Shown: one piece after another, positions 27,783 through 49,834 of the stretch
How positions within the stretch are numbered: position 1 is the first letter of the stretch
Layout of the letters: the number at the start of each line of letters is the position of its first letter
From: Malacoraja senta
Lineage: Eukaryota
Assembly: GCA_038087875.1 (NCBI GenBank)
Contig: CM075988.1
Span: 18,168,001-18,232,000, forward strand
Direction of reading: 5' to 3'
DNA: 64,000 bases
Made by a program: the position numbers and the translations under genes
Notes under the pieces: model-generated
The model's database searches: none
Seen by the model: only the letters and a program-made list of their open reading frames with translations
Told to the model about the DNA's origin: nothing

Positions 27783-29086
27783 ACCTTTCCATTCAGCTGA
27801 AGATGTTTTTAAAAAACCTTTCAGAGGTGTAAAGGAACTAATAAGCAATTATAAATATTTAATTTTTTTAAAATTACTAATTGACTACAGCACTCCAATA
27901 TAAGTGAACATTTGCTCTGTAGTTTTAAAATAATCTGCAGTTATTTGGTATCAAGTTACGAACAGATGGCTGATGAGACACTGAATCAAGTTCTGAGTTT
28001 TTTTGGTAATAAACTATTTATCAGCCTTGTTAACAAACCCCCCAAATAACCATTTTGAAAACATCGAGAAAGATTGTTGAAAGCAATTGTATTGTGTAAA
28101 AAAAGAATACGTTTCAGATGTTGCTGGGTTATACTGAGCAATGCAGATCATGCGTGTTGCATATCTTTCATTCATTGTTCTTTATCTCTCGACATTACCG
28201 TCTATATCTCTCGTTTCCTTTATCCCTAACCAGTCTGAAGAAGGGTCTCGACCCGAAACGTCACCCATTTCCTTCTCTCCAGAGATGCTGCCTGTCCTAC
28301 TGTGGCTTTTTGTGTCTATCTTGTGTGTAGGAAGGAAGTGCAGATGCTGGTTTAAACTGAAGATAGTCACAAAATACTGGAATAACTCATCAGCATCTCT
28401 GGAAAATAGGAATAGATGACGTTTCGGTTCGAGGCCCTTCTTCAGACATGTTCTTGTCTTCTTCTGAAGAAGGTCTCGACCCGACCAGTCTGATCCCTGA
28501 CCAGTCTGAAGAAGGGTCTCGACCCGAAACGTCACCTATTCCTTTTCTCCAGAGTTGCTGCCTGACCCGCTGAAGTACTCCAGCTTTTTGAGTCTAATGC
28601 AGATCAGGTATTGTAGAAATGGAAACTGCAGGGTAAGATACTATTGTTTAAAATGAACACACTCGTGCATGCAATGTGCATGTAGAACACTGTCACCTTT
28701 TAACACTGACTAACCTGGCCCCATAGCAGAAGCGTCCACGTCGCGGGGCTGGAAACTGGAAGTATCCTGAGCTAATTCTGCTACTACCATCATCTATTGC
28801 GACAAGTAATGGCTTCCACTAATTGTCGCCGGAAGCTTGCGTCCTTTTCAGGACGGACGATGACAGTGAGGTCAACATTTGTAACAAGATGGACACGAAA
28901 AGAAGAAGTGACTTACGTTATCCAGGAAATACCAGAAGAAACCTATTGTCTACACTAGGTAATTCAGCAGGCTGTGATGGTGCATTGGGAGTGTTTATGG
29001 TCCCACCACTGAAACACAGACAGTATATCAAGAGACTGTTGTTTTCTATTTGTCAAACCCAGAAAAAACAATTAAAGACAAAGTTA

Positions 29087-44545: not shown

Positions 44546-44707
44546 CTTCACTATTAAACTTGTTCCAATGTTCTGGTCAGAATGGTGTTGGTCTCCCCCC
44601 AGCTAACGTTGTATACTATCACAATGAGGGCCTACCTTGGAATGCAGGAGGTTGAGGGGTGATCTTATAGAGGGGATTTGGGATGATCAGCCATGATCAT
44701 ATTGAAT

Positions 44708-44761
44708 GGGGTGGAAGATTGCAACCTTCACGTGGTCCGCCCTGTTTCGACTAATGCAATC
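44708..44761 (+). ncRNA. Minimal HDV-like (CPEB3-type) self-cleaving ribozyme motif, copy 1
   Basis: P1 GGGGTGG/CCGCCCT, P2 GATTGCA/TGCAATC, P3 ACC/GGT, L3 TTCACGT, GT, residual P4 TTCGA, J4/2 CTAA. Confidence 0.8.
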
Positions 44762-44848
44762 AACTCGACGTGCACAAACAGAAGATCAAATAGGACAAGT
44801 TGTCCAACAACTTTAGGCTGCGCACGCCACACGAAAGAAGAAGAAGAA
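44708..44848 (+). mobile_element. Ribozyme-headed short retroposon, copy 1 ((GAA)n tail)
   Basis: Flanked by direct repeat gatcatattgaat(gg) at 44695-44709 and 44849-44863; interrupts a CR1 3' UTR; homologous to 48604-48732. Confidence 0.85.
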
Positions 44849-45334
44849 GATCATATTGAATGGCTCAAAGGACTGAATGGCCTACTCCTGCACCTATTTT
44901 CTATGTGGTTAGAAAACCCAATGAGGGAACAAAATAGGGTAAATGCAGTCTTTTACCCAGGGGGTAAATTTGTTGATTCTGGATTTGTACATATTTTTTC
45001 TCATTGACTGACTGTGTTTGGTTCTGGTATCTGTTCATCATTAGTTCTTCATAAATAAGCAAAATAACATTGTTATGTGCTATTAAAGTTGCCAGGGGTA
45101 AACGGGATGAACAAGGTTGGGAACGCCTGGGTGAGAGGGTTCAAGAACCAGAGGACATAGGTTCTGTCGTATCGTATTTGAGGTGAGATGGGAAAGAACT
45201 TGTGGGGCAACTTGTTCACACAGAGGGTGGTGGGTATGTGGAACGAGCGGCCAGAGGAGATGGTCAAGGCAGGCACTATAACAACACTTTAAAGACATTT
45301 GGACAGGTGCATGGGTTGGAAAGGTTTAGAGGGA

Positions 45335-45516
45335 ATGTTTAAGAAGGAACTGCAGATGCTGGAAAATCAGAGGTAGACCAAAATGCTGGAGAAACTCAGG
45401 GGGTGAGGCAGCATCTATGGAGGAAATAGGCAACGTTTCAGTTTGAAACGTTGCCTATTTCTTTGCTCCATAGATGCTGCCTCACCCGTTGAGTTTCTCC
45501 AGCATTTTTGCCTACC
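45335..45516. mobile_element. Fold-back Penelope-derived mini-element with 15-bp TSD
   Basis: Imperfect inverted arms; aaaggtttagaggga at 45320-45334 and 45517-45531; splits a CR1 fragment. Confidence 0.85.
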
Positions 45517-48500
45517 AAAGGTTTAGAGGGATATGGGCCAAACGCGAGGCTAGTTTAGATAGGGCATCTTTGGTCGGCATGGATCGTTGAGTTGAAGGGC
45601 CTGTTTCCATCTCAACCTCAACCCCGTGTTCCCCTGTATCTCCAACAGCCATCTTCAGAGAGGCTGGTAGAGGTGATGGAAACGGATTCCTGGCCATGTA
45701 CCATGTACAGGTAATGTAGGCAGTATTGATGACATTTTCCTGCACGCTGGTTGTGCTCTGAAGGATGTGTAAGAGGGCAGCAACCATTTCAACACTGAAA
45801 TACGAAAGCTCCTTATTCTAGATATGTGATATGTCTGAATAGTTATTCTTTATGTTCTACACTGAAGCTGGATGAAGCATCTTTTGTAATAACATTACAC
45901 TGGATCGTGGTGAAGCACTACTTATTGTACGGAAACTAGCTCTGATTTCTTCAATTGACACAACACTGCAGCAAATAAATAGCTAACAATCACCGCTTTC
46001 CATTGTTCTGTTCTTTAATTAAATGAAGAAAGTCAGTTACAATTCTCCTCCCTATTGGCAGATTTATGCCTCACTGCACTGCTTTGACGACCTCATGACT
46101 TCTAATCAACCTGAATCAAAGACCAGAACCCTTGGTATGGAATATTAATCTGCTCACACACTACAACCTTATGAGCTCAATGACTTCGGGGGAAAAGCAG
46201 AGTTTCAAACGTATCTCTGCATTTGCATTATTTTCACGGAGAGAAACATCTAATTCCGCCCAAGTCTTATTTGGAATTTATTTTAGACTTTGGAGATACA
46301 GTGTGAAAACAGGTCTTTCGGCCCACCGGGTCCATGCTGACCAGTAATCACTCAGTAAGTGCATCAGCACTATCCTACACAAACACTAAGGACCATTTAC
46401 AGTATTATTACTGAAGCCAATTAATGTACGAACCTGCCCGTCTTTGGGATGTGGGAGGAAACCCGGAGAAAACCGACAGCATCCATAGTCAGGATCAAAC
46501 CCGGGTCTCCGGCACTGGCAGGCAGCAACTCTACCGCTGCACCGCTGTGCCACCCCACTTCCACGTACCATGGCAGAGGGATTTTTATAGCGATCGAATC
46601 AGACAGCTGAAGACACTCCCGTTCCCAAAGCCAGTGAAAGGTGGTTCCAACACTACTCTCCCTCCTGATGGAACTGCAGATAGCAGGCGGCATATCGTTC
46701 GAGTTGCTGCCTTACAGCGCCAGAGACCCCGGGTTCAGTCCTGGCTACGGCTGTACTCTGTCTGTACGGAGTTTGTACGTTCTCCCCGGGTTTCGGTTTC
46801 CTCCCACACTCCAAAGACATACAGGTTTGGTATGAATGTAAAAACCGTAAAAAGTGTAGGATAGTTGTTAATGTGTGGGGGTCGCTGGTCGGCATTGGAC
46901 TTGGTGGGCCGAAGGGCCTGTTTCCTTTTTTAATTTTTTAATTTATTTATTTAATATTTTAATTTTATTTGAAGTACAATCATATGGCACCAAAGTGCCT
47001 AATATATATTGACATCATACATTTTATGTACAGTTTAAAAAAAAAATTATAATGAAAAAGAAAAAGAGAGAATAAATAATAAAAGATAGAAAAACGTACG
47101 ATATATAGTGTGTGAGAAAGAAAAAAGAGTGAAAGAAGAAAAGTGAAGAAAAGAAGGTAGGGCCTGTTTCCGAGCTGTATCTCTAAGCTAAACTAAAGCA
47201 GACAGTGCTGCTGCAGTTTAATGTGAGACCTGGGTTCCTTCCTGACCAAGGCACCGTCCACCTGTAACTCCCCCCCACCCCCCCCCCTCCATATCTATGT
47301 GGGTTTACCCTGGATGTTCTGGGTTCCACCCACATCCCAAAGGTGTGCAGGGGGGATGGGGGAGTTGGTGTGTGGGAGGACAGGTGACACGGGGAACGTG
47401 GATCACTCTGATATAACCAGCGCTGCCCAACACTCTCCCCCTGTGATCTCCACATACCTGACCTCTTCAGTGACCAAAGACCCATCAGCTCTTACTTGGA
47501 ATGTACTCTATAACCAGGGTACACTATAAGTGCCGTTGCCAGAGAACTCCTCACCCCGAGTGAGGAACGTCCTTGTCTCTGTCTTCACAGAGGTTCTCCG
47601 ATGGCCACACTCGGAGAGATGGAGCCACCTTCTCAACACTGTCCCATCAACATGGGCTACCTCACTCACACCCCTCTTCCATCTTTCACCCCGCAGCAAT
47701 CTGTCTGAAGAAGGTTCCAACAGACAATAGACAATAGACAATAGGTGCAGTAGGCCATTCGGCCCTTCGAGCCAGCACCGCCATTCAATGTGATCATGGC
47801 TGATCATCCCCAATCAGTACCCCGTTCCTGCCTTCTCCCCATATCCCCTGACTCCGCTATCTTTAAGAGCCCTATCTTGCTCTCTCTTGAAAGTATCCCT
47901 GTCCCTACCTGAAATGACGCCTGTCCATGTTCTCCGGAGATGCTTCCTGACCCGCCGAGTTACTCCAGCATTTTGTGCCGTTCTTTGGAAGTGTAGCAAA
48001 TTGGATTTGGAATGCGTGTGGATGATTTTTTTTGAAGAAGGAGGTTTACTATTTGACACATTAATTTGGAGGCAATGCAACCCAGGGAGCATTGTACTTG
48101 ACCAGTGTGGAGGGTGATGTTAGCAAGAGACGGACATCGAGACCACAGTGGATGGCCGCTGCAGCTATGGAACTATCTGTTCATGTTCTACGCCACCCTC
48201 CTGCAACTTACCCAATAGGGAAATTAACCATCTGGCCAATGGAAATACGTTCTTTAAATCTGGTGGAAATCTAATAAAACTATAAATTATTAAAATGATA
48301 AACGAATGCTTTAGTCGGGAAGCCAGCTGCTAATGCACCGTTGCTGAGGGCAAGGTGCTGTAATTAAAGGGGGAATAGCTCTCTCATCACAGGCTGGGCA
48401 GGGAGCGAGGGCTTTCATTGTGGTCTCAATATCTGACACGTCATTCTCTGCCCAGGAGTCTGTACACAAAACTGGGACCGAAGGCTTTGGCTGCCTACAA

Positions 48501-48603
48501 AGACTAGGTGGTGATGCCTGACAATGGCGGAGTTGGGGCAACGAGAATCAGAAGGCACAAGTTTTTGGTGAAGGGGGAAAGATCTTATAGAAATCTGAGG
48601 GGT

Positions 48604-48657
48604 GGGGTGGGAGATTGCAACCTTCACGTGGTCCACCCTGTTTCGACGAATGCAATC
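48604..48657 (+). ncRNA. Minimal HDV-like (CPEB3-type) self-cleaving ribozyme motif, copy 2
   Basis: P1 GGGGTGG/CCACCCT (G1.U wobble), P2 GATTGCA/TGCAATC, P3 ACC/GGT, L3 TTCACGT, GT, residual P4, J4/2 CGAA with the putative catalytic C at 48647. Confidence 0.85.
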
Positions 48658-48732
48658 AACATGGCGTGCACAATCAAATAGAACAAGTTGTCCTACAACT
48701 TTAGGCTGTGCACCCCATACGCAAGAAGAAGA
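48604..48732 (+). mobile_element. Ribozyme-headed short retroposon, copy 2 ((GAA)n tail)
   Basis: Flanked by agaaatctgaggggt (48589-48603) and aggaatctgaagggt (48733-48747); interrupts a CR1 fragment. Confidence 0.85.
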
Positions 48733-49834
48733 AGGAATCTGAAGGGTAACTCTTTCATGCAAAGGGTGGTGGGTGTATGGAACGAGCTGCCGGAGGAGGT
48801 AGTTGAGTCAGGGTCTATCACAACGTTTAAGAAGCAATTAGACAGGTACATGGATAGGACAGGTTTAGAGGGACATGGGCCAAATGCATGCAAGTGGGAC
48901 TGGTGTAGATAGGATGTGTTGGTCGGTATGGGCAAGTTGGGCCAAAGTGTTTGTTTCCTTGTTCTATGCTTCTAATACAGTTCAGAACAATGCCAATTAA
49001 ACAACTAGCCATTTAAGCCTACAAACATGTATGTCTTTGGAGTGTGGGAGGAAACTGGAGCACCTGGAGAAAACCCACATGGTCACAGGGAGAATGTACA
49101 AACTCCGTACAGACAGCACCTGCAGTAAGGATCGAACCTGACCCTCTGGCGCTGTAACGCAGCAAATCTACTGCTGCACCTCGGGTGGGGTGAGGATTGC
49201 TGCCAGTACTTAGTTCGATGAGGAATCTTAAAAGGTATCTGCAGCTGATATAACCGTGCGATTTGTAGCCCACTTTCCATGCAAAGTTGCTTACACTGAG
49301 TAATATTTCTCACATGATCCAAGGGCTCCTGCAGAACCGGCCGGCCGCTGTGACAATCTGTCTGTGGGTGGGTGGGAGCCGGTGGGTGGGGAAGGAAGCA
49401 GTGTGACTCTTATTCCAACCCACCTCGCTTGCTGGCAGCAATCCACAAAGGTGCTGTCAGTCGCAGGCCCAGCAACACGGGCATGAAGAGCAGGGCCGGC
49501 CCTCTTTGGGAACAGGCGCTACACCAGGCGAAACCTGCTCACACACTCAGAAAGATCCAAAGGACATCCTCCGTCCACCCTGGGAAAAAGACTGTCGCCA
49601 GTCACCTCATCATAAACTTGTATACCTCCATCATTTGGACAGGTACGTGGAAAGGAAAGGTAGCACAATGGTGCAGCGGTAGAGTTGCTGCCTCACAGAA
49701 CCAGACACCCGAGTTCTGTCCTGGTCACGGGTGCTGACGGTGTGGATTTTGCATGTTCTCCCTGTGACAGGGTGGGTTTCCTCCGGGTGCTCCGGTTTCC
49801 TCCCAAAGACATGCAGGTTTGTAAGTTACTTGCT

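What the first reader, a model, noticed from the sequence alone, without database searches (positions are those of the whole stretch)
48604..48657. Complete minimal HDV-like ribozyme with a CPEB3-type core at the 5' end of a short retroposon
Seen in sequence: GGGGTGG GA GATTGCA ACC TTCACGT GGT CCACCCT GT TTCGA CGAA TGCAATC. This gives the nested double pseudoknot: P1 48604-10/48633-39 with a G1.U wobble, P2 48613-19/48651-57, P3 48620-22/48630-32, L3 UUCACGU and J4/2 CGAA. Established knowledge: this is the HDV-family fold. As I recall them, L3 UUCACGU, the GU after P1 (single-bp P1.1) and J4/2 CGAA are the core of the mammalian CPEB3 ribozyme. HDV-like ribozymes process the 5' ends of R2, RTE and other non-LTR elements. 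Inference: P4 is nearly deleted, giving a 54-nt ribozyme, and cleavage 5' of G48604 would produce exactly the element's 5' end.
Basis: partly seen in the sequence, partly recalled or inferred. Interest (0 to 1): 0.9.

Follow-up and report, generated by a model that had tools for sequence, protein, structure and literature searches.

The report
Self-cutting head of a tiny retroposon
The flagged 54 bases are the head of a very short, very abundant jumping element and fold like a stripped-down hepatitis-delta-type self-cutting RNA whose cut site is exactly where the element begins; cutting itself has not been tested.

Summary
Window 48604-48657 has P1 (7 bp, G1.U), P2 (7 bp), P3 (3 bp), L3 UUCACGU, GU and CGAA exactly as described. 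These core motifs equal the Rfam CPEB3 consensus.

It is the first 54 nt of a ~132-145-nt non-coding retroposon, here called family A. The ribozyme is followed by a long 3' hairpin and a (GAA)n tail. A flexible 33-mer of it occurs 5,192 times in this 1.94-Gb genome. Target-site duplications put the 5' end at G1, the predicted cleavage site, within 2 nt in 42 of 47 copies.

A second retroposon family in the window (family B, 28717) has the same design with a full P4. It passes Rfam's CPEB3 threshold (43.4 bits).

Copies decay neutrally and show no compensatory changes. The common variants sit only at positions the fold tolerates.

No parent LINE and no RNA evidence were found. Catalysis is inferred.

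This is a new variant of a known kind: a P4-less HDV-like ribozyme heading a high-copy non-autonomous retroposon. It also gives CPEB3-like ribozyme sequences outside the CPEB3 gene.

The parts
48592..48603 (+). left target-site duplication (AATCTGAGGGGT) of the flagged copy
   Evidence: 12-nt repeat, 1 mismatch with 48736-48747; it ends directly before G48604
48604..48657 (+). minimal HDV-like ribozyme. P1 48604-10/48633-39; J1/2 48611-12; P2 48613-19/48651-57; P3 48620-22/48630-32; L3 48623-29; G48640 (P1.1 partner of C48625) and U48641; P4 remnant 48642-46; J4/2 48647-50 with the presumed catalytic C48647. Predicted cut is 5' of G48604.
   Evidence: weak end-to-end Rfam alignment to HDV-F-prausnitzii over exactly these bases
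48658..48722 (+). 3' domain of the retroposon: a long hairpin (outer stem ATGGCGTGCACA / TGTGCAC(C)CCAT, inner stem AAGTTGT-CCT-ACAACTT). It is the presumed recognition structure for a reverse transcriptase supplied in trans.
   Evidence: (fold of the consensus-identical copy L051). This copy belongs to a variant lacking an 11-nt duplication present in the majority.
48723..48735 (+). (GAA)n-type tail (AAGAAGAAGAAGG)
   Evidence: tails of 2-10 GAA units in other copies
48736..48747 (+). right target-site duplication (AATCTGAAGGGT)
44696..44863 (+). second family-A copy. Left duplication 44696-44707 (up to 14 nt if the first two G are counted), ribozyme 44708-44761 (G8A, U5.G32, J4/2 CUAA), body and (GAA)n to 44849, right duplication 44850-44863.
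28707..28918 (+). family-B retroposon. Left duplication 28707-16, CPEB3-like ribozyme with full P4 28717-28783, body, (GAA)n tail ending 28908, right duplication 28909-18.
   Evidence: (RF00622, 43.4 bits, threshold 35)

Best explanation
Window 48604-48735 is one copy of a non-autonomous non-LTR retroposon ('family A', 132-145 nt, no ORF, no Pol III head). It consists only of a 54-nt P4-less HDV-like ribozyme with a CPEB3-type core, a 3' hairpin and a (GAA)n tail.

Proposed mechanism:
1. A copy lying inside any transcribed region is co-transcribed.
2. The ribozyme folds into the double pseudoknot. C44 (window 48647) acts as general acid and cuts 5' of G1.
3. The released RNA therefore starts exactly at G1 and carries the whole ribozyme.
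4. The 3' hairpin and (GAA)n tail recruit a LINE reverse transcriptase in trans.
5. Target-primed reverse transcription to the RNA's 5' end gives a full-length copy with a 9-15-bp target-site duplication. That copy can act as a source wherever it is transcribed again.

Shown: the fold-compatible sequence, the family, its copy number, the duplications and the 5' end at G1. Inferred: self-cleavage, co-transcription and the trans-acting LINE.
For: Sequence and pairings. The core letters are identical to the Rfam CPEB3 consensus: L3 7 of 7, CCCU-GU, CGAA.

Family size: the exact 22-mer occurs 4,645 times and a flexible 33-mer 5,192 times. All 30 best hits of the 3' half carry the ribozyme upstream.

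5' end: of 56 copies examined, 47 gave a flanking direct repeat (at least 9 nt in 44). Its upstream copy ends within 2 nt of G1 in 42 of 47, and at offset 0 or +1 in 30 of 47.

No tRNA-like head.

Independent parallel: family B has the same layout (ribozyme first, (GAA)n tail, duplications starting at its G1). Its ribozyme passes Rfam's curated CPEB3 threshold. Between A and B, 10 of 16 comparable base pairs differ on both sides and all 16 still pair, while L3 and J4/2 stay (parse, compared by eye).

Variation: in 100 listed of 5,192 copies (hand tally), the variants well above the 5-9% CpG-decay background are G32A (32; U5.G to U5-A), G45U (28; the N of CNAA) and G42A (16; P4 remnant). The same three positions are the only ribozyme positions varying in at least 5% of contig depth in four public runs.

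Literature: P4 is dispensable in known minimal HDV-like ribozymes (PMC10879173, passage read). LINE-derived non-autonomous elements keeping a 5' ribozyme are known (PMC5786205 and PMC6765202, passages read).
Against: No cleavage assay and no RNA data. No run on record as RNA holds the element.

Rfam does not recognise it. There is no CPEB3 or HDV hit at E up to 10 except HDV-F-prausnitzii at 15.9 bits, E 0.53, threshold 44.

Within the family there is no covariation: 0 pairs changed on both sides, and observed values equal the shuffles.

The catalytic C and L3 CpG decay in copies at the same rate as other CpGs (C44T 5, C24T 9, G25A 6 of 100), so copies give no sign of selection. The three common variants all falling at tolerated sites is weak evidence. 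Among the 8 possible CpG transitions I judge 5 tolerated, and two of the three common variants (G32A, G42A) are such transitions; picking three at random would land on tolerated sites about 18% of the time (my arithmetic), and the third variant, G45U, is a transversion outside that set.

No parent or partner LINE was found.

The P4 remnant could also pair G37-C44 and U38-A43 around a UUCG loop, which would sequester the catalytic C.
Confidence: 0.8

Rival explanations
1. The fold is a relic. The element descends from a ribozyme-bearing LINE, but the P4-less version no longer cleaves (or cleaves poorly). The 5' end at G1 is made another way, for example by a nuclease or by trans-cleavage.
For: P4 is reduced to 5 nt. 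Rfam models do not accept it. A competing G37-C44/U38-A43 mini-hairpin is possible (sequence).
Against: Every one of the thousands of copies has the P4-less form, and young copies 97-100% identical to the consensus start at G1. So the amplifying RNA itself was P4-less and began at G1. Minimal HDV-like ribozymes without P4 are described as a class (PMC10879173).
Confidence: 0.1
2. The 5' end at G1 is a transcription start from an internal promoter (Pol III or Pol II), as in ordinary SINEs or the L1Tc Pr77 element. The ribozyme-like pairing is secondary or serves another role, such as protein binding.
For: Most SINEs start at their own transcription start. L1Tc combines promoter and ribozyme in the same 77 nt (PMC3383444, abstract seen in the listing). 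GTTTCGAC at positions 37-44 differs by one letter from the first seven letters of the recalled B-box consensus.
Against: ARAGORN finds no tRNA-like structure, and I see no A box. The match to the HDV/CPEB3 core is far beyond chance. Family B, with an Rfam-significant ribozyme, begins at the same structural position.
Confidence: 0.07
3. Chance resemblance: a repeat that merely happens to fit the HDV descriptor.
For: Structure-only descriptors give background hits: 17 others in 355 kb and 2-9 in shuffles.
Against: With the CPEB3-type L3 there are 0 other hits. Here P1 and P2 are 7 bp each. L3, GU and CGAA are identical to CPEB3. The motif sits exactly at the element's 5' end.
Confidence: 0.02

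Closest known systems
Bipartite non-autonomous LINEs / SIDEs (short internally deleted elements of R2; also RTE and Ingi derivatives such as NARTc)
   Same: No ORF. They keep the parent's 5' end with its HDV-like ribozyme and the 3' end needed for reverse transcription, and are mobilised in trans (PMC5786205 passage; PMC6765202 passage; PMC3414825 abstract).
   Different: No parent LINE sharing either end could be found here. Insertion is not site-specific: the duplicated target sequences are unrelated to each other. The element is far shorter (about 140 nt), the ribozyme lacks P4, and there are thousands of copies in a 1.94-Gb genome.
Minimal HDV-like ribozymes (drz-Mtgn, theta ribozymes of gut phages)
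   Same: Double-pseudoknot HDV fold without the P4 domain, about 50-60 nt (PMC10879173 passage).
   Different: Those come from metagenomes and phages, some next to tRNAs, and their origin was stated as undetermined. This one heads a eukaryotic retroposon and carries the CPEB3-type L3, J1/4 and J4/2 letters.
Mammalian CPEB3 ribozyme (Rfam RF00622)
   Same: Family A shares L3 UUCACGU, the outer P1 pairs GGGG/CCCU, the GU after P1 and J4/2 CGAA with the RF00622 consensus. Family B shares 21 of 22 consecutive letters across P2-P3-L3-P3' and the last 9 letters (AAUUCUGCU), and scores 43.4 bits against a threshold of 35.
   Different: CPEB3 is a single intronic copy with an 18-nt P4, reported only in mammals (PMC8233481 passage). 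These are multi-copy retroposon heads. Family A gets no RF00622 hit at E up to 10.
HDV-like ribozymes at the 5' end of autonomous non-LTR elements (R2, RTE, Baggins, L1Tc)
   Same: Co-transcript processing that defines the element's 5' end (PMC6765202 passage).
   Different: Those elements encode their own reverse transcriptase and their ribozymes have P4.

Membership tests
HDV-like self-cleaving ribozymes | P1 helix beginning at the cleavage-site G with a G.U wobble at its base | tested here: met
   GGGGUGG/CCACCCU, G1.U36. 95.2% of cells paired in 49 distinct copies.
HDV-like self-cleaving ribozymes | P2 pseudoknot, whose 3' strand follows J4/2 | tested here: met
   GAUUGCA/UGCAAUC, 7 bp. 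97.4% of cells paired.
HDV-like self-cleaving ribozymes | 3-bp P3 closing a 7-nt L3, and P1.1 between L3 and the G after P1 | tested here: met
   ACC/GGU, L3 UUCACGU. C22-G37 can pair in 46 of 48 cells.
HDV-like self-cleaving ribozymes | Catalytic C at the start of J4/2 (C-N-A-A) | tested here: met
   C48647 in CGAA. The family shows CGAA, CUAA and CAAA with C kept in 94 of 100 listed copies (hand tally). Its catalytic role is not testable here.
HDV-like self-cleaving ribozymes | P4 helix | tested here: not met
   Only UUCGA lies between GU and CGAA. This fits the minimal subclass that lacks P4.
HDV-like self-cleaving ribozymes | Covariation supporting the helices | tested here: inconclusive
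   Within family A there are 0 compensatory pairs. Between A and B, 10 of 16 comparable pairs change on both sides and still pair, but homology of A and B is not established.
HDV-like self-cleaving ribozymes | Site-specific Mg2+-dependent self-cleavage | not testable with these tools
   No assay and no RNA data. No RNA holder was listed.
Rfam CPEB3_ribozyme (RF00622) | Score at or above the gathering threshold (35 bits) | tested here: not met
   No hit at 48604 with gathering or E up to 10. Family B at 28705-28782 does pass, at 43.4 bits.
Rfam CPEB3_ribozyme (RF00622) | Single conserved copy in a CPEB3 intron of mammals | tested here: not met
   Thousands of dispersed copies with target-site duplications.
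Non-LTR, LINE-dependent non-autonomous retroposon | Dispersed copies, target-site duplications, 3' simple-repeat tail, no ORF | tested here: met
Bipartite non-autonomous LINE / SIDE | A parent LINE sharing the 5' and 3' ends | tested here: inconclusive
   Exact-pattern searches for either end in a different context found no LINE. A diverged or rare parent would be missed.
Pol III (tRNA-derived) SINE | tRNA-like head with A and B boxes | tested here: not met
   ARAGORN found 0 genes in 44600-48800.

The most novel reading that the evidence does not exclude
Families A and B are living members of the retroposon-ribozyme lineage from which the mammalian CPEB3 ribozyme was exapted. The CPEB3 consensus reads like a mosaic of the two: A's outer P1, L3, GU and CGAA, and B's P2 and P3 letter for letter. 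If so, the CPEB3 ribozyme began as the head of a small LINE-dependent retroposon that landed in the CPEB3 intron. These families would supply the outgroup that ancestral reconstructions lacked.
Probability: 0.3. Interest if true: 0.85.

Novelty: new variant of a known kind. Interest (0 to 1): 0.6.

Why it matters
HDV-like ribozymes at retrotransposon 5' ends are established. This case is different in three ways.

1. The ribozyme is the P4-less minimal form. That form was described from metagenomes and phages, with its origin stated as undetermined.
2. The element is close to the smallest design that could still work: a self-cutting head, a hairpin and a tail. It needs no promoter of its own, yet reached over 5,000 copies.
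3. Its core, and even more that of its neighbour family B, is CPEB3-like at the sequence level. [quoted passage not shown]

If cleavage is confirmed, this gives a natural 54-nt HDV-type ribozyme. It also gives a testable route for the origin of the CPEB3 ribozyme.

Tried and rejected
RNA evidence. The look-up of sequencing runs listed no holder on record as RNA. The four runs laid were contigs, probably DNA, and showed no start or end signal. This says nothing about expression.

Parent or partner LINE. I ran exact patterns for each end of A and B with the family's own neighbouring bases excluded.
- The 3' hairpin start of A gave 26 hits, mostly a composite repeat and not a LINE.
- The last 22 nt of A gave 2 hits.
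- The last 31 nt of B gave 0 hits.
- B's P2-P3 with another P1 gave 1 hit.
- The shared tail motif ACGMAA(GAA)n in another context gave 7 hits against 3 in the control.
- A's ribozyme followed by something other than AAC gave 2 hits.
- A's P3/L3 with another P2 gave 11 hits, all A-like.
- A Pfam RVT_1 search gave 159,857 candidates. The one top hit I fetched is an L1-like element with a poly(A) tail, so not the partner.

Other checks.
- Rfam: no CPEB3 or HDV_ribozyme hit on A.
- Within-family covariation: none.
- tRNA-like head: none.
- Earlier findings of this scan: nothing for this genome or sequence. The word search returned only unrelated phage, fungal and archaeal-virus cases.

Papers. 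Ruminski 2011, Webb and Luptak 2011 and Webb 2009 are not held. What I say about them is recalled or taken from citing papers. Searches for such elements in print found no vertebrate retroposon with a minimal or CPEB3-type HDV-like head. Repbase and Dfam could not be consulted.

I considered that L040 might be a LINE carrying B's ribozyme. It is a B copy interrupted by another repeat.

Full report
**Observation.** A descriptor script parses them as follows:
- P1 GGGGTGG/CCACCCT, with G1.U36
- J1/2 GA
- P2 GATTGCA/TGCAATC
- P3 ACC/GGT
- L3 TTCACGT
- GT, then a 5-nt stretch TTCGA where P4 should be
- J4/2 CGAA

ViennaRNA's minimum-free-energy fold of the 54-mer is exactly P1+P3. Its z-score is meaningless here because the P2 pseudoknot is not modelled. 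The RF00622 consensus printed shows GCG-UUCACGU-CGC, CCCCU-GU and CUG-CGAA-UUCUGCU.

The same descriptor with a CPEB3-type L3 hit nothing in 355 kb of held sequence (both strands) except this family (43-45 hits) and one other family (10 hits). With any L3 it gives 17 unrelated hits, and 2-9 in shuffles. Chance is excluded.

**What it belongs to.** The 54-mer recurs in the window at 44708-44761 and throughout the window's own 1.94-Gb genome.
- A 77-nt query gave at least 40 matches of 90-100% identity.
- The exact 22-mer GATTGCAACCTTCACGTGGTCC occurs 4,645 times.
- A 33-mer with the four CpG sites left free occurs 5,192 times.
- All 30 best matches to the 3' half carry the ribozyme directly upstream, so this is one short unit. 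I call it family A.

Family A has three parts: the ribozyme (1-54); a long hairpin (about 59-125: a 12-bp outer stem and an inner AAGUUGU-CCU-ACAACUU stem); and ACGCAA followed by 2-10 GAA units.

I examined 56 copies for flanking direct repeats.
- 47 had one (at least 9 nt in 44).
- The upstream repeat ends within 2 nt of G1 in 42 of 47, and at offset 0 or +1 in 30 of 47.
- Offsets above 0 are what a target that happens to continue with G would give.

For the flagged copy the duplication is 48592-48603 / 48736-48747, with 1 mismatch. For the second copy it is 44696-44707 / 44850-44863. The element therefore begins at the predicted cleavage site. ARAGORN sees no tRNA-like head.

**A parallel family.** Rfam's only gathering-level hit in the window is CPEB3_ribozyme at 28705-28782 (43.4 bits, threshold 35, E 2.4e-8). 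It is not a gene feature. It is the head of a second retroposon, family B, of about 195 nt.
- It gave 1,842 first-look candidates. Its exact 26-mer occurs 311 times.
- It also has a (GAA)n tail and target-site duplications that begin at G28717.
- B has a full P4.
- B shares 21 of 22 consecutive letters (P2-P3-L3-P3') and the last 9 letters with the mammalian consensus.

A and B have the same architecture with different helices. Of 16 comparable pairs, 10 differ on both sides, 1 differs on one side and 5 are identical, and all 16 pair (parse, compared by eye). L3 is UUCACGU in A and UCCACGU in B. J4/2 is CNAA in both. This is the best structural support available, though A and B may not be homologous.

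**Variation among copies.** In 52 aligned copies (49 distinct), 95.6% of cells pair, against 21-45% in slid registers. No pair changes on both sides, and every measure equals its shuffles. That is expected, because inserted copies are dead on arrival.

I tallied by hand the 100 copies listed of 5,192.
- CpG transitions lie at a 5-9% background at every site, including the catalytic C and L3: C44T 5, C41T 5, C31T 6, C24T 9, G25A 6.
- Three variants are far commoner: G32A (32; turns U5.G into U5-A), G45U (28; the free position of CNAA, and the letter family B has) and G42A (16; in the P4 remnant).
- The same three positions are the only ribozyme positions varying in at least 5% of contig depth in four public runs of other coded organisms.

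So the variants that spread through source copies sit where the fold tolerates them. With so few sites this is suggestive only.

**Mobilisation.** I could not find the reverse-transcriptase donor. Exact patterns for either end of A or B in a foreign context found no LINE. The highest-scoring RT family is an L1-like element with a poly(A) tail, which does not fit a (GAA)n tail. The layout matches what Kojima calls bipartite non-autonomous LINEs. These keep the parent's 5' end, possibly because of a 5' ribozyme, and are known for RTE, Ingi and R2 (PMC5786205, passage). It also matches R2 SIDEs (PMC6765202, passage).

**RNA evidence.** None. No run on record as RNA holds the element, and the runs laid were contigs.

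**Comparison with print.**
- Minimal HDV-like ribozymes lacking P4 were described from metagenomes and phages, with origin undetermined (PMC10879173).
- My seven literature searches found no description of a retroposon headed by a minimal or CPEB3-type ribozyme in a vertebrate-sized genome.
- Key subscription papers were not held, and Repbase and Dfam could not be checked.

**Verdict.** The most likely mechanism is co-transcription, self-cleavage 5' of G1, and trans-mobilisation through the 3' hairpin and (GAA)n tail (confidence 0.8). Catalysis and the partner remain inferred. It is a new variant of a known kind. The boldest reading still open is that these families are relatives of the ancestor of the mammalian CPEB3 ribozyme.

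Noticed in passing
window 28707-28918 (+): Family-B retroposon whose head is a full-P4 HDV-like ribozyme passing Rfam's CPEB3_ribozyme threshold (43.4 bits). Its P2, P3 and 3' strand are letter-identical to the mammalian consensus. The exact 26-mer occurs 311 times in the genome. It has a (GAA)n tail and target-site duplications.
   Followed up: partly
L074-L092 (for example L081:1290-1560, L084:1380-1560, oriented as): A multi-copy composite repeat. It holds an internally deleted, 3'-truncated family-A fragment (positions about 1-29 joined to about 59-103), preceded by one or two about 130-nt tandem units that each contain a degenerate copy of the ribozyme's 5' half. Kilobases of C/T-rich low-complexity sequence follow. 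Its origin is unexplained.
   Followed up: partly
L096 (G000:C9:26874300-26881300, minus strand): L1-like LINE with an uninterrupted 1271-aa ORF2, an upstream ORF1-like frame and a poly(A) tail. Many hits in the RVT_1 table show the same 1271-aa open frame, suggesting recent activity.
   Followed up: partly
window 45340-45500: A long near-perfect inverted repeat (about 70-nt arms around GTTTCAGTTTGAAAC), seen while reading the flank of the second family-A copy. It looks like a hairpin or MITE-like repeat. Similar words recur in several loci.
   Followed up: no
window 48749-48960 and 49020-49190: The flagged copy lies between pieces of other abundant interspersed repeats (for example GGTGTATGGAACGAGCTGCCGGAGGAGG...). 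The same repeats flank many family-A and family-B copies in the fetched loci.
   Followed up: no
L058 and L060; L069 and L070; L032 and L033; L036 and L037; L038 and L039: Pairs of loci with identical flanks on different contigs or places. These are segmental duplications or assembly duplicates, so copy counts slightly overstate independent insertions.
   Followed up: no
one search run table: Near-identical 31-mers of family A are held by 24 runs of 13 studies under at least ten coded organism labels (A-J). The family is therefore shared by several related species.
   Followed up: partly
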